A DNA stretch of 64,000 nt from Escherichia coli (GTDB lineage: Bacteria; Pseudomonadota; Gammaproteobacteria; Enterobacterales; Enterobacteriaceae): the NCBI RefSeq assembly GCF_024502345.1, contig NZ_JALDNN010000001.1. The stretch is one strand, 5' to 3'. Each line of letters starts with the position of its first letter. Position 1 is the first letter of the stretch. Shown here piece by piece: positions 56,031 through 64,000 of the stretch. The notes beneath the pieces were generated by a model. The model worked only from the letters and a program-made list of their open reading frames with translations. It ran no database searches and was not told the DNA's origin. A program made the position numbers and the translations under genes.

Positions 56031-56513
56031 ACGGACATAACCTACATCAGGACCCACGAAGGCTGGCTGTATCTTGCCGTGGTGGTTGATCTGTTCTCAC
56101 GCAAAATTATCGGCTGGTCCATGCAATCCCGGATGACAAAGGACATTGTCCTGAACGCACTGCTGATGGCCGTATGGCGGCGTAATCCCCAAAAACAGGT
56201 GCTGGTTCATTCGGATCAGGGCAGTCAGTACACAAGCCATGAGTGGCAGTCGTTCCTGAAATCACACGGCCTGGAGGGCAGCATGAGCCGTCGCGGTAAT
56301 TGCCATGATAATGTGGTTGCAGAAAGCTTTTTCCAGTTGTTGAAACGCGAACGGATAAAGAAAAAGATCTACGGAACGCGGGAAGAAGCCCGCAGCGATA
56401 TTTTTGATTACATCGAAATGTTTTATAACAGTAAGCGTCGGCATGGTTCCAGCGATCAGATGTCACCGACAGAATATGAAAACCAGTATTATCAACGGCT
56501 CGGAAGTGTCTAG
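56031..56513 (+). mobile_element. 3' fragment of an IS3-family orfB (DDE transposase C-terminus), abutting the truncated IS26
   Basis: Frame encodes DITYIRTHEGWLYLAVVVDLFSRKIIGWSMQSRM...HSDQGSQYTS...MSPTEYENQYYQRLGSV. Confidence 0.8.
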
Positions 56514-56546
56514 ATTATCTGTGGCGATTCATATCTTGGAATATAA

Positions 56547-56985
56547 ATGTTAAAAAAATTAATAACTTTTTCTGCCATCCTGTGTACGGGACAAGCATGG
56601 GCTGCATGTGTGGATGGTGCAGCTGGCCCAAACGGCGTAGATAGTGCCACCGAAGGTAGTACCTGCGATAACAGCGGTACGTCATATATAGGGAATAATA
56701 CCGCTTATGCGAGCGGGTCAGGTTCTGTTCTTAATTTCTTACCTGGAACTGTAATCAGTAGTAATGGTGTTGCTGCCGTTTATACGCTTGCCGTGGGAGG
56801 AGTCAATAGTGGCGGTTCGATCCCTGGAGCTGGAGCAACGGTTCATGCAAAAGGAGATTTAACAGTTAATGGGAATGCTCTGGGCAGTACTCGGAGTATT
56901 TTTATCTTTTCTGGTACAGATGCAGGGGGAAAACGTAACTCACTTCAGATAGATGGAAACCTGACTGCAACGAGGACTGGCGGTC
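56547..56985 (+). pseudogene. 5' fragment of a secreted Gly/Ser/Thr-rich protein gene (possible adhesin/autotransporter passenger), 3'-truncated at the junction with the integrase fragment
   Basis: Signal peptide MLKKLITFSAILCTGQAWA then low-complexity passenger-like sequence; the ORF's last codons are antisense integrase sequence. Confidence 0.4.
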
Positions 56986-57548
56986 TTTATGGGGCTGTTA
57001 TAGGTGATAATGCCTGACTGGGCAGCATAGCGCATGATTGCAGTGATACGCTGCTGAAGGCGCGCTGCAATCTCATAAATCTCTTTGGCTTCGGCTGCCT
57101 TTACTGGAACAAGTAAATCGGGAGTTCTGAGGGTGGTAATGTCACGTGAACCGATAAAGGGAAACACATGAGTTTCTAGGCTTTTCAGTATCTTCTCACT
57201 ATGTGAGGCTGACCATTTTTTGTTGCTCTTATGCCACTGCCTTGCGATGCCTTCAAATGTCTGAGCTGTTTCGGGTACCGACTTTTTGATTCGTTTCTGT
57301 TCGCACGGGTCAGTTCCTTCAGCTATCTGCTTTCTCGCCGCATCGCGTTTTTCCCTTGCTTCTGATAACGAGACTTCAGGATAGACACCCAGGGCGAGCG
57401 TTTTCTCTTTGCCCAGAAACCGGTAGCGGAGTCGCCAGTAGCGCGAGCCGTTAGGGTGAACGAGCAAAAACATGTTGCCGCTGTCGGCAAGTTTATAAGG
57501 TTTTTCATCCGGTTTAGCTGCACGGATTTTAGCGTCAGTGAGCGCCAT
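56980..57548 (-). pseudogene. P4-type phage/island integrase, N-terminal ~190 codons only
   Basis: MALTDAKIRAAKPDEKPYKLADSGNMFLLVHPNGSRYWRLRYRFLGKEKTLALGVYPEVSL matches recalled CP4-like integrase arm-binding domain; catalytic domain absent; sits 195 bp downstream of the tRNA-Phe fragment. Confidence 0.75.
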
Positions 57549-57743
57549 TGGCGGTATCTCCTGATAGTAAAAGGGGCATAAATTTTATCGAATCAGACTA
57601 TACCCTCAGTTGTACCCTCGCAAGGGGCTTGATGCGGGTAGAAGTTGATTGAGCTGGGTGGAGTTAATGGATTGAAGAGGTGTTGATTTCTGCGGGATTA
57701 GAATGCAAAAACGGACCTCCGTGGAGGTCCGTTGATATGAATT

Positions 57744-57792
57744 TGGTGCCCGGACTCGGAATCGAACCAAGGACACGGGGATTTTCAATCCC
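57744..57792 (-). tRNA. tRNA-Phe 3'-terminal 49-nt fragment (not a complete gene): direct-repeat remnant of a tRNA-Phe attachment site
   Basis: Exact match to reverse complement of recalled tRNA-Phe 3' half TGGTGCCCGGACTCGGAATCGAACCAAGGACACGGGGATTTTCAATCCC; match ends abruptly. Confidence 0.8.
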
Positions 57793-58069
57793 TTTAAAAG
57801 AGCCCAAACGATCCATCAGCACTAACAGTTTTTTACTGGTTTACCTTGAGAAAAATGTTTAAGTTTGGTTCTTCATGACTTAAGTATTGCTTAAATACGG
57901 CGTTTCGAAGCTACCAGAATCCTACCATTATGAGCCTATACCCATAGAAGAGAAATTATCTCCCGTTCTCGCGATTCAATGACTAAAAATCAGACGGTGC
58001 AGGCTTTTAGATACTGATATTATATCTTTTGGGTAAAGTATTAATCTCTGTTGAGATAGGCTCTTAGCC

Positions 58070-58408
58070 CTAAAATAGCCGAGCAGCAAACGCCAAAACA
58101 ACAATACTAACATTACCATTAACTGTCGCGATGGTTCTGAGTCGATCGTCTTTAAGTGTTTTACCATCAAATGTTGCGATGGTGCGGAGTCGATCGTCTT
58201 TCAGGGTCTTGCCATCAAAGGTAGCGATGGTGCGGAGTCGGTCGTCTTTCAGGGTTTTACCGTCAAAAGTTGAGATGGTTCTGAGCCGGTCGTCTTTCAG
58301 GGTTTTACCGTCAAACGTTGCGATGGTCCTGAGCCGGTCGTCTTTCAGGGTTTTACCGTCAAAGGTAGCGATGGTACGGAGTCGATCGTCTTTTATAGTT
58401 ACGCTCAT
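58070..58408 (-). CDS. Small repeat protein: MSVTI, about 5.5 copies of a 16-aa unit (KDDRLRTIATFDGKTL), hydrophobic C-terminal tail
   Basis: ORF with AGGAGA RBS 6 nt before ATG at 58408; repeat units differ mainly by synonymous codon changes (Arg CGC/AGA/AGG/CGT; Asp GAC/GAT). Confidence 0.55.
   Translation of the reverse strand: MSVTIKDDRLRTIATFDGKTLKDDRLRTIATFDGKTLKDDRLRTISTFDGKTLKDDRLRTIATFDGKTLKDDRLRTIATFDGKTLKDDRLRTIATVNGNVSIVVLAFAARLF
58131..58400. repeat. 48-bp tandem direct repeat array, about 5.6 copies
   Basis: Units ATGGT(G/T)C(G/T)GAG(T/C)CG(A/G)TCGTCTTTCAGGG(T/C)TTTACC(A/G)TCAAA(G/C)GT(A/T)GCG read directly. Confidence 0.85.
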
Positions 58409-58629
58409 AAGCATTCTCCTGTGATACGTCCGTTCAGCACTTTACCATCCAAAATCAAGCACTGGTTTCTGTGAGTTCTGGACGCTAATTGTCTGAATCA
58501 GCGATTAAAACTCATCCAGTTAGCATTAACATTAACCAGCGCCTCATCGATCATAACAGGTCTGATGCAGGTTAAAAGATACAATCTTACCCATAAATTG
58601 CGGTAGCGCATTGTTCTTTTATCTGACAT

Positions 58630-61600
58630 CTAGAGGTGTCCTCCAACCCCTTTAAATTTTTCGATAAATGCCCCAATTTTCTGGAATACAGTCTGCTTTT
58701 TCGTTTTGTACTGAGGATTCAGCGGACTGAGCTTTGGTAGCGTCTCATTTAGCTCCGTCCCATTTTCGGTGGCATACTCCCGTTTTAGTGATGTGCGGAT
58801 ATAGCGCCTTGCAGCCTCTTCATTGAGGTTTTCTTCCTTAATCAACGCCTCTGCTTCCCGTTGCTGTTCACGCTGAGCATAGGTAAAGAATGCATCAATG
58901 ATACTGGCCTTGTCCGGCATGTCATCAAGGTTAGTTTGCTGAATAAAGTCAACAATCAGACCTTCTTTGGCACGGTTGCCCAGACTTGAGCGGATTAAGC
59001 GTCTGACCTCTTCAGTCAGGGCTTCTTTACCTTTTTTCTGACGATTGTGGTCGAAAATCAGACCAAGGATGTAATCCAGGTTAATTTCCTGCGACTTCAG
59101 CAGGTCAATTTCAAACACCACGTCATCCCAGTCTGTGGTTGATTTATCCCTGTCGTTTGATGCTTTTTCGCGTCGCTGCCAGTCCCGGATATCATTGTAT
59201 GCTGAGCGATAGTCCTGAACTTTACGTTCTGCCGGGAGACGAATGGTTTGTAATTCAGCAAATTTTTCATCATCCACATAGTGCTCTGCTTTAAAGGTTT
59301 CTACCGCTTCCGGGTCACTAATATCAACCTTCTGCAGGGCTTTCAGCGTGGCAAATTCATCATAGTTTTGCAGGATGTTTTCTGCCCGCAGATATTCACC
59401 AAACAGTTTGACGAAGGCTTTTTTCTCTTTTTCACTGTCGATACTGGCAGGGTCAGGGAAGCGCTGCTCCAGCTCAGAGACAACAGCCATAAAACCTCGT
59501 TTAGCCTCACCGGTTGCCGCATCGGTAAAGCCCTGCATGTACTCTTCGTAGCTTTTTTCCAGCACCACATTCTTGGTGTTTTTGTCGCCGAAAAGTGTGA
59601 TGGCATCAATGGTCGGACGCTCCAGGTCCCTGAAAGTCACGATATTGCCGAAGGTTTTGGTTGCATCATAGATACGGTTGGTGCGTGAGAATGCCTGCAT
59701 CAGACCGTGATAACGCAGGTTTTTGTCAACGAACAGAGTATTGAGCGTCGGAGCATCAAAGCCAGTCAAGAACATTCCCACCACGATGAGAAGGTCAATA
59801 TCCTGATTTTTCACTCGTTGAGCTAAATCGCGGTAGTAGTTCTGGAAACCGTTACTGTCGGTGCTGAAATTGGTTTTAAAGTGGTTGTTATAGTCATCAA
59901 TGGCTGAATCCAGGAATTCCTTTGCGCTGCTGTTCATTGCACTGGTATCAAAACTTTCGTCGGTAATATCACCAATAGCGCTTTGCTCTTCATTAGCAGC
60001 AAAAGAGAAGATGGTTGCCACACGAAGACGTTTATAGCTGCCAGATTTCTTCTCAGCTTCTTCCTGTAGCATTTTAAATGTCGTGTAATAAGCTTTTGCC
60101 GCGTCCACGCTGCTCACTGCTAACATGGCATTGAAGCCTTTTGCTCCCGGGAAGGTACGATGCGTTTTCTGGCGGAAGTTATTGAGAATGTATTGCGTTA
60201 TTTCCTGGATACGCAGTGGGTGCAGAAAGGCCTGGTGGTTTTCAGCCGCGCTGAGTTTTTTCTCATCAGTTTCCGTTTCAAGAGACTTAAACTGTGGGCG
60301 GACATCGTTATAGTCCACCTTAAACTTCAGCACTTTTTCATCACGAATCGCATCAGTAATGACGTAAGAATGTAATTCACGCCCGAAGACGCTGGCGGTG
60401 GTTTCTGCCCCCAGTGCGTTTTCCGGGAAAATAGGTGTACCGGTAAAACCAAACTGATAAAAGCTTCTGAATTTCTTTTTGAGGTTTTTCTGGGCCTCAC
60501 CAAACTGGCTGCGGTGACACTCATCAAAGATAAACACAACCTGCTGCTGATAGACGGGCAGGTCAGCTTCGGCTTTCATCAGGTTATTGAGTTTCTGAAT
60601 GGTTGTGACGATAATTTTGTTATCGTCCTTATCCAGGTTTCTTCTGAGGCCAGCTGTATTATCCGAACCATTCACACTGTCCGGAGAGAAGCGCTGATAC
60701 TCCTTCATGGTCTGGTAATCGAGGTCTTTCCTGTCGACCACGAAGAAGACTTTATCAATAAAGTCCAGCTCGGTTGCCAGACGTGCGGCCTTAAAACTGG
60801 TCAACGTTTTACCGCTACCTGTGGTATGCCAGATAAACCCGCCGCTTTCGGGTTTTGACCAGTTCTTCGCTTTAAATGAGCTGTTAATTTTCCAGAGGAT
60901 TCGCTCAGTGGCAGCAATCTGATAGGGGCGCATGACGAGCAGCGTCTGGCTGCTGTCAAACACGCTGTAATTAAACAGAACATTCAGCAGAGTATGCTTC
61001 TGGAAGAAAGTGGCGGTAAAGTCCTTCAGGTCCTTAATCAGAGTGTTATCCGACTTTGCCCAGTTCATGGTGAAATCAAAGCTATTTTTATCCCGTTTAG
61101 TGGTACTGGCAAAGTACCGGGTATCAGTCCCGTTGGAAATCACGAAGAGTTGCAGGTATTTAAACAGGGAGTTATCGCTGTTAAAGCTTTCCTTGCTGTA
61201 ACGGTGTATCTGGTTAAAGGCTTCACGAATCGCCACACCGCGTTTTTTGAGTTCGATTTGCACCAGTGGAAGGCCGTTGACCAGAATGGTGACGTCATAA
61301 CGGTTAGCGTGTGAGCCAGTCTGCTCAAACTGCTGAATGACCTGCACCTTATTGCGCAGCAGGTTCTTTTTATCTATCAGATAGATGTTTTCCAGACGAC
61401 CATCATCAAACGTAAAATCACAGATATAGTCGATATGGATTTTACGGGTTTTGTCCAGGCTGCTGTCACTGGGACTGTCCAGATACTGCTCTGCGAAGCG
61501 CCGCCATTCACTTTCGTTAAACACCACACCATTAAGACGCTGAAGCTGGTCTCGCACATTCGCCAGCATCGCAGCCGGTGACTTAACGGAGATAAACTCA

Positions 61601-61746
61601 TACCCCTGATTAAGAAGGTCTTGAATCAGCTCCCGCTCAAGGTCCGATTCGCTCTGGTAACTCTCACCAGTTTCCTGAGCTTTAGAGTACTTATCAAGGA
61701 CGATAAAGTTATTGGATTCAGCAATAGTATGTGTCTGTTGTGTCAT
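58630..61746 (-). CDS. hsdR: Type I restriction enzyme R subunit (HsdR)
   Basis: 1038-aa ORF with helicase-type motifs (TGSGKT, DECHRSQ) and type I R subunit architecture. Confidence 0.9.
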
Positions 61747-61861: not shown

Positions 61862-63087
<1,226 letters not shown>

Positions 63088-63091
<4 letters not shown>

Positions 63092-64000
63092 TTCTGCACC
63101 TCGCAGCCTTCAATTTCAGCCACAATCGCATCAATATCTTTGCGCAACTGGTCGATTTTGCTGACCGTGGTTTTCAGCTCTGCATTCAACTCAGCGATAT
63201 CGATAATTTCGCGAGTATCTTTCGCTTCCACATAGCTGCTCACCGACAGGTTATAGTCATTCGCGACAACAGTCTCAAACGCAACAGATTTCGCCAGATG
63301 AGCAACATCTTCCTTGCTGGCAAATACCTGCATAATTTGTTCGATATGGGCATCGGTCAGGATATTGTTGTTGGTCTCTTTTTTGAATAGTTCACTGGCG
63401 TCAATAAACTGAACTTTGGTATCGGTTTTATGTTTAGACAACACCAGAATATTGACGGCAATAGTGGTGCCAAAGAACAGGTTCGGTGCCAGTGAAATCA
63501 CGGTTTCGACATAGTTATTGTCAACCAGGTACTGTCGGATTTTCTGCTCTGCACCGCCACGGTAAAAAATACCGGGGAAGCAAACTATTGCTGCACGCCC
63601 TTTAGCAGACAGGTAGTTCAGCGCATGTAGGACAAATGCAAAGTCCGCTTTTGATTTCGGGGCCAGTACACCAGCTGGAGCAAAGCGCTCATCGTTAATC
63701 AGGGTCGGGTCGTCACTGCCAATCCACTTAACCGAGTACGGCGGGTTAGAGACAATCGCATCGAACGGTTTTTCATCGCCAAAGTGAGGCTCAGTCAGGG
63801 TATTCCCCAGTCTGATATCAAATTTGTCGTAGTTGATGTTGTGCAGGAACATGTTCATACGCGCCAGGTTAAAGGTTGTATGATTTATCTCCTGACCATA
63901 AAAACCTTCTTCAATGATATGGTTATCAAAGTGCTTCTTCGCCTGAAGCAGCAGTGAACCAGAGCCAGCGGCAGGGTCATAGATTTTGTTGACGTGAGTC
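63088..64000 (-). CDS. hsdM: Type I restriction-modification methyltransferase subunit (HsdM), C-terminal part; 5' end lies beyond the window
   Basis: ORF with N6-adenine methyltransferase motif IV (NPPY); frame open to the window edge; stop overlaps the hsdS start. Confidence 0.85.

What the first reader, a model, noticed from the sequence alone, without database searches (positions are those of the whole stretch)
58070..58420. Small gene built from ~5.6 tandem 48-bp repeats, with synonymous variation indicating protein-level selection
The repeat units are not identical, but nearly all differences preserve the minus-strand amino-acid sequence KDDRLRTIATFDGKTL (Arg encoded by CGC, AGA, AGG and CGT; Asp by GAC and GAT; correlated double changes). 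That pattern, the AGGAGA ribosome-binding site and the hydrophobic C-terminal tail argue for a real small repeat protein rather than a CRISPR- or REP-like element. Tandem repeats in frame are prone to copy-number change, so its length may vary between strains. Function is unknown; it sits between the att repeat and the type I R-M system.
Basis: seen in the sequence. Interest (0 to 1): 0.6.

Follow-up and report, generated by a model that had tools for sequence, protein, structure and literature searches.

The report
Repeat-built beta-flower protein gene beside restriction system
The tandem 48-bp repeats are a real, already-annotated small gene for a "beta-flower" barrel protein of unknown function, and its relatives keep turning up next to nucleases and anti-phage defence genes.

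Summary
A 48-bp unit is repeated 5.9 times at 58113..58393. It lies inside a minus-strand ORF, most likely 58070..58408 (112 aa), preceded by AGGAGA.

Differences between units are almost all synonymous in that frame only: 56 synonymous against 4 non-synonymous codon differences, dN/dS 0.037, simulation P<1e-5.

The gene is not new. The protein matches Pfam PF21785 (Bflower_2, E=1.7e-10) and is identical to RefSeq WP_020838577.1, "5-fold beta-flower protein". AlphaFold predicts 12 strands (six hairpins) plus a C-terminal hydrophobic helix. The nearest solved folds are LURP-one and Tubby.

Unit number varies in frame between strains: 6, 5 or 3 in the chromosomal gene, and 6, 4 or 3 in a plasmid paralogue.

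The gene is an optional 3' appendage of a mobile type IC hsdMSR cassette. Related hsdR genes lack it.

Function is unknown. Beyond the finding, independent homologues sit beside a type V retron, a pVip-like radical SAM gene, BnzAB, a type IIG enzyme, an Mrr-like nuclease, a KAP NTPase and UzuA. One subfamily sits in a conserved beta-CASP nuclease plus PD-(D/E)xK-like cassette. That points to a nuclease or defence partner role, which is inferred and untested.

The parts
58070..58408 (-). CDS of the beta-flower protein (112 aa, pI about 10, 12.7 kDa). The alternative upstream ATG at 58414 would give 114 aa.
   Evidence: The ORF is listed. Pfam PF21785 Bflower_2 matches at E=1.7e-10, model positions 3-101 of 112. 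The protein is 100% identical to the RefSeq CDS WP_020838577.1, '5-fold beta-flower protein', in E. coli 21AR0133.
58415..58420 (-). Shine-Dalgarno-like AGGAGA, 6 nt upstream of the ATG at 58408
   Evidence: Read directly from the sequence.
58113..58393 (-). Tandem array of 48-bp (16-codon) units encoding KDDRLRTIATFDGKTL. There are five full units plus a sixth that runs into the tail.
   Evidence: Tandem Repeats Finder: period 48, 5.9 copies, 87% matches, no indels. Unit table and frame test are; dN/dS 0.037 is. The longest exact run shared by adjacent units is 35 nt.
58073..58120 (-). Codons 97-112 (NGNVSIVVLAFAARLF): the hydrophobic C-terminal segment, predicted to be a helix
   Evidence: The AlphaFold2 model has a helix at residues 101-111, with pLDDT 59-67 in that part. 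A hydrophobic C-terminal segment is present in homologues across the family.
58409..58629 (-). 221-nt spacer between the hsdR stop and the beta-flower start. It contains a 43-aa ORF (58498..58629) that is probably not a gene.
   Evidence: The simple scans found no terminator-like or sigma-70-like site on the minus strand here. The 43-aa frame is broken in L001, L006 and L008. Rfam gave only a chance-level sroE match, 16.9 bits against a gathering score of 51.
58630..61746 (-). hsdR, type I restriction subunit (EcoR124 / type IC family), immediately upstream on the same strand
   Evidence: PADLOC REase_I scores 1564 bits. RefSeq orthologues are named 'type I restriction endonuclease subunit R, EcoR124 family'.
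61862..63091 (-). hsdS specificity subunit
   Evidence: PADLOC Specificity_I, E=3.5e-122. It is only 35-67% identical between cassettes whose hsdR is 98-99% identical.
63088..64000 (-). hsdM methyltransferase, C-terminal part (aa 216-518), cut off by the end of the window
   Evidence: PADLOC MTase_I. tblastn with the 518-aa HsdM of L001 aligns aa 216-518 at 99.7% identity up to the window end.
57744..57790 (-). 47-nt tRNA 3' fragment ending in GGCACCA, which I identify from memory as tRNA-Phe. It is the island-end att repeat, 280 nt downstream of the beta-flower stop.
   Evidence: A single exact copy in the window, none expected by chance. ARAGORN finds no complete tRNA. A terminator-like hairpin follows at 57733..57710.

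Best explanation
**What is shown.** This is a genuine protein-coding gene. Six tandem 48-bp units each encode one 16-residue beta-hairpin (strands TLKD and TIATF).

**What is predicted.** The six hairpins close into a small antiparallel barrel, the beta-flower fold (Pfam PF21785, Tubby-like clan). The short hydrophobic C-terminal helix is predicted to form its core.

**Why the units look as they do.** Every hairpin sits in an equivalent position, so purifying selection holds all units to almost one amino-acid sequence. Their third codon positions have drifted apart (dS about 0.76). That drift leaves only 15-35 nt of exact identity between units. Recombination between units still happens and produces in-frame alleles with 3, 5 or 6 units.

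**Where it sits.** The gene is optional cargo at the 3' end of a horizontally mobile type IC hsdM-hsdS-hsdR cassette. The cassette lies at the att end of an island bounded by a tRNA 3' fragment. The gene is not a core restriction-modification subunit.

**Function (inferred, not shown).** The protein is basic (pI about 10) and compact. Independent family members are repeatedly encoded next to nucleases and defence genes. I therefore think it most likely works as a small binding or adaptor module that accompanies nuclease-based defence systems. It may bind nucleic acid or acidic membrane lipid through its ring of Lys/Arg loops. A metabolic or structural housekeeping role seems less likely.

**Confidence.** The 0.8 given here applies to the shown and predicted parts: a real gene, a beta-flower family member, and optional cargo of the cassette. 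I put the inferred nuclease or defence partner role at about 0.35.
For: **Coding.**
- The synonymous bias is frame-specific.
- The RBS is correctly spaced from the second ATG.
- The Pfam hit has E=1.7e-10.
- An identical RefSeq protein carries the family name.
- Homologues at only 68-72% nucleotide identity keep the same protein frame.

**Fold.**
- AlphaFold2 gives pLDDT 82 and pTM 0.62, with 12 strands and a helix at 101-111.
- Foldseek finds 217 AFDB50 matches at E<=0.001, with TM about 0.85-0.92 for small proteins.
- The 96-aa allele models as 10 strands plus a helix.

**Unit-number alleles.**

**Optional cargo.**
- All 18 close orthologues follow the same hsdR, which is 98-99% identical where the whole gene is on the contig.
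- Homology stops exactly at the beta-flower stop codon in many genomes.
- About 1283 E. coli genomes carry related hsdR genes without this beta-flower DNA, and a 97%-identical hsdR has a different gene in that slot.

**Nuclease and defence neighbours of independent homologues.**
- Type V retron (RT plus Se72-family effector).
- pVip-like radical SAM.
- BnzA/BnzB.
- Type IIG enzyme.
- Mrr_cat / PDC-S02, 3-nt gap.
- UzuA.
- KAP NTPase resembling QatA and PifA.
- A beta-CASP MBL plus PD-(D/E)xK-like cassette, seen in two gene orders.

**Charge.** pI 10.06.
Against: - No transcript, peptide or phenotype data exist for this gene or any family member in the literature I could search.
- The fold is a prediction. 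The helix has low confidence (pLDDT 59-67). I could not inspect coordinates to confirm that it lies inside the barrel.
- The defence link rests on neighbourhood only, in a small sample that was not drawn at random. Defence islands and small plasmids collect unrelated cargo.
- Two of the contexts share one plasmid replicon type, so they are not fully independent.
- Several homologues sit in ordinary contexts: Succinatimonas next to dgkA and tadA, others next to Fur/AhpC, pyrC, or a histidine kinase.
- PADLOC has no model for the protein.
- The family name says five-fold, but the model of this allele has six hairpins.
Confidence: 0.8

Rival explanations
1. The beta-flower protein is a working accessory of this particular type I restriction-modification enzyme. 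For example, it might tether or regulate HsdR and be co-transcribed with it.
For: It lies on the same strand 221 nt after hsdR, with no terminator-like site between them. All 18 close orthologues keep this position. In many genomes the cassette's homology ends exactly at the beta-flower stop codon.
Against: All those loci are one near-identical mobile module, so they count as a single observation. Related type IC hsdR genes in about 1283 E. coli genomes lack this DNA. A 97%-identical hsdR carries another gene in the slot. Close homologues (82-87% identical) occur on about 4-kb plasmids that have no restriction-modification genes.
Confidence: 0.15
2. It is generic mobile-element cargo whose role has nothing to do with defence, such as an envelope or stress protein or a plasmid-maintenance factor. 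Its defence neighbours would then reflect only shared residence in variable regions.
For: It sits at island ends and on minimal ColE1-type plasmids next to rop and mob genes. Some homologues have ordinary neighbours. Some family members carry signal peptides.
Against: In one subfamily the gene lies on the same strand as a beta-CASP MBL gene with one gene between them. Where that gene is the PD-(D/E)xK-like protein, it sits 36-84 nt upstream. The grouping survives a change of gene order and 35-41% sequence divergence in the MBL protein. It is 3 nt from an Mrr-like nuclease gene in another subfamily. Tight linkage of that kind is not expected from mere co-residence.
Confidence: 0.3
3. The array is non-coding repeat DNA (an iteron, REP-like or regulatory repeat), and the ORF is an accident.
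For: Both strands are open across the array: there is a plus-strand ORF of 97 aa at 58131..58424. No expression data exist.
Against: 12 variable columns yield only one amino-acid change in one frame, P<1e-5. There is a Pfam match and a confident predicted fold. Distant homologues share the protein but not the DNA. All length variants are whole 48-bp units, so they stay in frame.
Confidence: 0.02
4. The real gene is the antisense plus-strand ORF 58131..58424.
For: It is open for 97 aa. One antisense frame shows a partial synonymous bias of 44:24, because its third codon positions coincide with those of the sense frame.
Against: It has 24 non-synonymous differences against 4 for the sense frame. 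The Pfam match, the RefSeq call and the conserved C-terminal helix all belong to the minus-strand frame.
Confidence: 0.01

Closest known systems
Pfam PF21785 Bflower_2, '5-fold beta-flower protein' (beta-flower fold; Durairaj et al., Nature 2023, PMC10584680)
   Same: There is a significant HMM match. The protein is about 100 aa, built of tandem beta-hairpin repeats followed by a C-terminal hydrophobic helix. No function is known. RefSeq already gives identical proteins this name.
   Different: The model of this 112-aa allele has 12 strands, or six hairpins of 16 residues. The paper's founding example has ten strands with about 19 residues per hairpin. The semiconserved [DNEQ]xxG motif is replaced here by an invariant DG turn and a DDRLR loop. 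The natural 3-, 5- and 6-unit alleles and the nuclease or defence neighbourhood are not described in that paper.
Tubby C-terminal domain, LURP-one (At5g01750) and phospholipid scramblase-like fold (Pfam clan CL0395)
   Different: Sequence identity is 9-12%. This protein is about half their size, with much shorter strands. The paper reports a circular permutation relative to Tubby. No lipid or DNA binding has been shown for any beta-flower protein.
In-frame tandem-repeat length polymorphism in bacterial genes (contingency-type loci)
   Same: Whole-unit gain or loss keeps the reading frame, and alleles differ between strains.
   Different: The six-unit allele dominates: about 38 of the 40 listed E. 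coli genomes, judged by match length. The units have diverged at synonymous sites, which reduces slippage. Nothing suggests on/off or adaptive switching.
Accessory genes appended to type I restriction-modification cassettes and other defence-island cargo
   Same: It occupies a variable slot just after hsdR. Other strains carry a different gene there or nothing. One carrier strain also has an AAA ATPase inserted between hsdS and hsdR.
   Different: The protein matches no PADLOC defence model. No activity has been assigned to it.

Membership tests
Pfam PF21785 Bflower_2 (5-fold beta-flower protein) | Significant match to the family HMM over most of its length | tested here: met
   hmmscan gives E=1.7e-10 and 41.2 bits, query 6-104 against model 3-101 of 112. 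The authors generally used a 27-bit inclusion threshold. RefSeq names identical proteins accordingly.
Pfam PF21785 Bflower_2 (5-fold beta-flower protein) | Closed antiparallel barrel built from tandem beta-hairpin 'petals' | tested here: met
Pfam PF21785 Bflower_2 (5-fold beta-flower protein) | Five-fold symmetry (ten strands) | tested here: not met
   The 112-aa allele in the window models with 12 strands, or six hairpins. The natural 96-aa allele models with 10 strands. The family name therefore fits the 5-unit allele, not this one.
Pfam PF21785 Bflower_2 (5-fold beta-flower protein) | C-terminal hydrophobic helix enclosed by the barrel | tested here: inconclusive
   A helix is predicted at 101-111, but with pLDDT 59-67. 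The best solved matches have a central helix. The hydrophobic stretch is only about 13 residues, too short to span a membrane. I could not inspect coordinates to confirm that it is buried.
Pfam PF21785 Bflower_2 (5-fold beta-flower protein) | Semiconserved [DNEQ]xxG motif at the hairpin tip | tested here: inconclusive
   The unit KDDRLRTIATFDGKTL has an invariant DG turn (D49 and G50 in alignment A1) but no strict [DNEQ]xxG. The related 94-aa subfamily does have DSHG / DxxG in the long loop.
Tubby-like clan (CL0395) | 12-stranded barrel with a central helix, recognisable by structure comparison | tested here: met
Type I restriction-modification system (core component) | Present wherever the system is present; one of HsdR, HsdM or HsdS | tested here: not met
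   Related hsdR genes occur in about 1283 E. coli genomes without this beta-flower DNA. A 97%-identical hsdR has another gene in the slot.
Known anti-phage defence protein families (PADLOC-DB v2) | Match to a defence-protein HMM | tested here: not met
   No significant hit for this protein (best E=0.043) and none for six homologues.
CRISPR array or REP-type repeat element | Repeats separated by unique spacers (CRISPR), or palindromic extragenic units (REP) | tested here: not met
   The units are head to tail with no spacers and no indels, and they lie inside a selected ORF. Rfam found no match above chance.
Phage-encoded (anti-defence) protein | Occurrence in phage genomes | tested here: not met
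   There is one weak hit in 50,697 phage records and no relative in IMG/VR contigs.

The most novel reading that the evidence does not exclude
Beta-flower proteins of PF21785 are a fold with no assigned function. They may be dedicated small partners of nuclease-based conflict systems.

The same roughly 100-aa barrel is attached to type I, type IIG and Mrr-like restriction enzymes, a type V retron, BnzAB, UzuA and a KAP NTPase. In one subfamily it forms a conserved, undescribed three-gene cassette with a beta-CASP metallo-beta-lactamase nuclease and a PD-(D/E)xK-like protein.

Recombination between the repeat units would set the number of hairpins (4, 5 or 6) and so the size of the barrel.
Probability: 0.35. 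Interest if true: 0.65.

Novelty: already known. Interest (0 to 1): 0.38.

Why it matters
The gene itself is already catalogued. An identical RefSeq protein carries the Pfam family name, so the finding adds no new kind of element.

Two things are useful.

- **A clear natural example of repeat-encoded protein evolution.** The hairpins are almost identical as protein but diverged at synonymous sites. Natural alleles have 3, 5 or 6 units, giving models with different strand numbers.
- **A lead on function.** The beta-flower fold was published as new and has no function. Here, independent members of the family lie beside nucleases and anti-phage systems, and one subfamily lies in a conserved two-nuclease cassette. 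That gives concrete experiments: deletion and phage plating in E. coli strains carrying the hsdMSR-beta-flower cassette or the 4-kb retron plasmids.

Tried and rejected
- **NCBIfam** gave only noise for the protein.
- **PDB sequence search** gave weak multi-repeat matches to designed Kelch-like SAKe proteins, with no single stretch significant. I treat this as a repeat artefact.
- **PHROGs** gave many weak whole-protein scores with no significant stretch. This is again repeat or composition noise.
- **Rfam** on 57400..58800 gave only a chance-level sroE match.
- **The promoter and terminator scan** found nothing usable between hsdR and the gene, so co-transcription remains open.
- **The 43-aa ORF right after hsdR** was rejected as a gene because its frame is broken in three orthologous loci.
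- **The search for related loci with alignment A1** failed for lack of a conserved stretch. The single-protein scan of viral contigs found nothing.
- **DNA mimic or anti-restriction role** was rejected. The protein is basic (pI 10) and is absent from phages.
- **Tail-anchored membrane protein or type I toxin** is unlikely. The hydrophobic stretch is only about 13 residues.
- **Pentapeptide-repeat, MORN, Rhs and similar UniProt names** on structural neighbours do not fit the 16-residue period.
- **Disrupted hsdM** was suspected from the ORF list and disproved. The gene is simply cut by the window end.
- **The PD-(D/E)xK-like neighbour family** gave no solved relative in a profile search of the PDB and no significant Pfam hit. 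That assignment rests on the invariant E..D..ExK..Q motif and on weak NucS, SduA_C and DUF234 hints.

Full report
**1. The observation**

Tandem Repeats Finder finds a 48-bp unit repeated 5.9 times at 58113..58393, with 87% matches and no indels. The array lies inside a minus-strand ORF, 58070..58414. AGGAGA occupies 58420..58415. It touches the first ATG and sits 6 nt before the second (58408), so the likely product is the 112-aa protein starting MSVTIK. RefSeq uses the same start.

The product is six KDDRLRT-type units of 16 residues, followed by NGNVSIVVLAFAARLF.

**2. Selection on the protein**

The five complete units have 12 variable nucleotide columns. Ten are at third codon positions. 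Two are at first positions: one belongs to a CGN/AGR arginine switch and one gives Ala->Ser.

| Frame | Synonymous: non-synonymous codon differences |
|---|---|
| Coding (minus strand) | 56 : 4 |
| Other five frames | 10:58, 0:68, 0:60, 44:24, 4:64 |

Nei-Gojobori estimates are dS 0.76, dN 0.028 and dN/dS 0.037. In 100,000 random placements of the same 12 changes, none gave one or fewer variable amino-acid columns.

The plus-strand ORF 58131..58424 is a by-product. Its partial bias comes from third codon positions that coincide with those of the sense frame.

**3. What the gene is**

The protein matches Pfam PF21785 (Bflower_2, "5-fold beta-flower protein") at E=1.7e-10 over nearly the whole model. 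Fifty of 5426 complete E. coli genomes carry the locus. RefSeq annotates it with that name, and the 21AR0133 protein WP_020838577.1 is 100% identical.

The fold was described from AlphaFold models by Durairaj et al. 2023 (PMC10584680). They describe short antiparallel hairpin "petals", often a C-terminal hydrophobic helix inside the barrel, variants with 8, 10 or 12 strands, placement in the Tubby clan, and no known function. No other paper in the searchable library mentions these Pfam families.

**4. Predicted structure**

- AlphaFold2 with an 18-sequence alignment gives pLDDT 82 and pTM 0.62. It predicts twelve strands (six TLKD and six TIATF strands) and a helix at 101-111.
- Foldseek finds 217 AFDB50 matches at E<=0.001, with TM about 0.85-0.92 to small uncharacterised proteins.

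This allele is therefore predicted to have six hairpins, not five. The natural 96-aa allele models with ten strands at lower confidence, pLDDT 72.5.

The protein is basic, with pI 10.06. The hydrophobic tail is only about 13 residues. That fits a buried core helix better than a membrane span.

**5. Unit-number variation**

| Source | Alleles seen |
|---|---|
| Complete E. coli genomes | 6 units (112 aa; about 38 of 40 listed, by match length), 5 units (96 aa, strain ET220), 3 units (64 aa, strain ES1) |
| Metagenome contigs | 6-unit and 5-unit alleles |
| 53%-identical paralogue on about 4-kb plasmids | 6, 4 and 3 units, with plasmid size changing in steps of about 48 bp |
| Klebsiella plasmids | 5-unit and shorter forms |

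RefSeq labels the 5- and 3-unit alleles "hypothetical protein". All changes are whole units, and no orthologous array has an in-frame stop.

Exact identity between units is at most 35 nt. That is consistent with occasional rather than frequent recombination.

**6. Genomic setting**

The window is E. coli chromosome in the ygiQ-hyb-glc region. The gene lies 221 nt downstream of hsdR on the same strand. hsdR belongs to the EcoR124 / type IC family, and hsdS and hsdM lie upstream of it. A 47-nt tRNA 3' fragment marking the island end lies 280 nt beyond the gene's stop. I identify it from memory as tRNA-Phe.

All nine close orthologues from genomes follow the same hsdR. They come from E. coli, three Enterobacter species, Pseudocitrobacter and Mixta. 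All nine from metagenomes do too. hsdR is 98-99% identical wherever the whole gene is on the contig.

In many genomes homology stops exactly at the beta-flower stop codon. The gene therefore travels with the cassette.

It is still optional. Related hsdR genes at 80-82% nucleotide identity occur in about 1283 E. coli genomes without it. A 97%-identical hsdR in NCTC9967 is followed by a different 388-aa gene.

**7. Neighbours of independent homologues**

This goes beyond the finding. The homologues below differ in sequence and in host.

*Neighbours that are defence or nuclease genes:*

| Homologue and context | Neighbour |
|---|---|
| ColE1-type plasmids of E. coli, Salmonella, Klebsiella and Serratia | Type V retron: RT plus Se72-family cold-shock effector |
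| Klebsiella 4773-bp plasmid | pVip-like radical SAM gene |
| Metagenome contigs L020-L023 | BnzA/BnzB |
| L028 | Type IIG restriction-methylase |
| L035-L037 | Mrr_cat / PDC-S02 nuclease, 3 nt downstream |
| L042 | UzuA, two genes away |
| L154 | KAP NTPase resembling QatA and PifA |

*A conserved cassette.* A cheap DNA-pattern scan of metagenomes recovered 34 further beta-flower genes. In the 94-aa subfamily the gene sits in a same-strand cassette with two partners.

- One partner is a 410-440-aa metallo-beta-lactamase / beta-CASP protein (Pfam Lactamase_B_2 plus RMMBL, with weak RNase J and Cas14-MBL similarity).
- The other is a 265-320-aa protein with an invariant E..D..ExK..Q motif.
- Both gene orders occur: MBL>X>BF and BF>X'>MBL.

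*Pfam census.* Among 55 neighbour proteins, the hits also include integrases, a Phd antitoxin, a staphylococcal-type nuclease and a pPIWI-associated nuclease.

*Homologues with ordinary neighbours:*

| Homologue | Neighbours |
|---|---|
| Succinatimonas | dgkA, tadA |
| L034 | Fur, AhpC |
| L043 | pyrC, a glycosyltransferase |
| Two spirochaete loci | Signalling genes |

The protein is absent from phage collections and from PADLOC.

**8. Interpretation**

Shown by tool results:
- It is a real gene with strong purifying selection on each unit.
- It belongs to PF21785.
- It has in-frame unit-number alleles.
- It is an optional 3' part of a mobile type IC cassette.

Predicted only: a closed six-hairpin barrel around the C-terminal helix.

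Inferred: a role alongside nucleases or defence systems, perhaps binding nucleic acid or acidic lipid through the basic loop ring. This rests on gene neighbourhood in a modest sample that was not drawn at random. I put it at roughly one in three.

Main rivals:
- It is mobile-element cargo unrelated to defence.
- It is a specific helper of this HsdR. That is weakened by close homologues on plasmids that have no restriction-modification genes.

**9. Verdict**

The element itself is already known and annotated, so novelty is low. The residual interest lies in the variable unit number and in the recurrent nuclease or defence neighbourhood of a fold that still has no function.

Noticed in passing
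L135:8274-10773, L076, L111, L068, L129; L058:406-3046, L134, L124 (metagenome loci): There is a conserved same-strand cassette in the 94-aa beta-flower subfamily. It combines a beta-CASP / metallo-beta-lactamase protein of about 410-440 aa, a 265-320-aa protein with an invariant E..D..ExK..Q (PD-(D/E)xK-like) motif, and the 94-aa beta-flower gene. A second gene order also occurs: beta-flower, then a 248-aa protein with N-terminal hydrophobic segments, then the MBL gene. PADLOC v2 has no significant model for it (one middle protein hits PDC-S11 weakly), and the middle protein has no significant Pfam hit.
   Followed up: partly
L040 (NZ_CP039563.1, 4148 bp), L015-L019, L024-L027, L039: ColE1/Rop-type plasmids of about 4 kb occur in E. 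coli, Salmonella, Klebsiella and Serratia; many also carry MobA/NikA-like mobilisation genes. They carry a type V retron (RT plus Se72-family cold-shock effector) and, about 0.6 kb upstream of the RT, a beta-flower paralogue. That paralogue has 6, 4 or 3 units, and plasmid size shifts in steps of about 48 bp.
   Followed up: partly
L038 (NZ_CP084821.1, Klebsiella quasipneumoniae, 4773 bp): This small ColRNAI plasmid carries rop, a 296-aa radical SAM protein that matches PADLOC pVip models (E about 1e-25), a 137-aa unknown gene, and a 5-unit beta-flower gene 87% identical to the window protein. It shares its replicon type with the 4261-bp retron plasmid L039.
   Followed up: partly
window 58498-58629 (-): A 43-aa ORF starts immediately after the hsdR stop codon. 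Its frame is split in L001, L006 and L008, so it is probably not a gene. The hsdR to beta-flower spacer is otherwise conserved at the nucleotide level: overall identity across this region, the spacer included, is about 89-96%.
   Followed up: partly
window 56079-57790: Beyond the tRNA 3' fragment (57744..57790) lie three decayed pieces. These are a truncated P4-type integrase (56940..57548, 202 aa), an overlapping ORF with a signal-peptide-like start (56547..57017, +), and the C-terminal part of an IS3-family transposase (56079..56513). Together they look like the remains of a second island inserted in tandem.
   Followed up: partly
window 61862-63091 (-), compared with L001 and L005-L008: HsdS is only 35-67% identical between cassettes whose HsdR is 98-99% and whose HsdM C-terminal half is 92-99.6% identical. 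This is the expected swapping of target-recognition domains.
   Followed up: no
L001:15836-17155 (E. coli 21AR0133); L045:1314-2480 (E. coli NCTC9967): The same type IC cassette has other variable insertions. One is an AAA family ATPase between hsdS and hsdR. Another is a 388-aa hypothetical gene in the slot after hsdR where the beta-flower gene sits in the window.
   Followed up: no
L154:2277-4899: A beta-flower gene is followed by a 616-aa KAP-family NTPase (PADLOC PDC-S20, QatA and PifA-like). A second repeat protein of 112 aa follows, with a GSG-rich 16-residue unit and a hydrophobic C-terminus.
   Followed up: no
L041:8001-8261 (Klebsiella IncF plasmid NZ_OP378659.1): A beta-flower gene of the Klebsiella type is cut at its 3' end by a Tn5403-family transposon. 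It lies inside a multi-resistance region carrying qnrB1, tet(A) and dfrA14.
   Followed up: no
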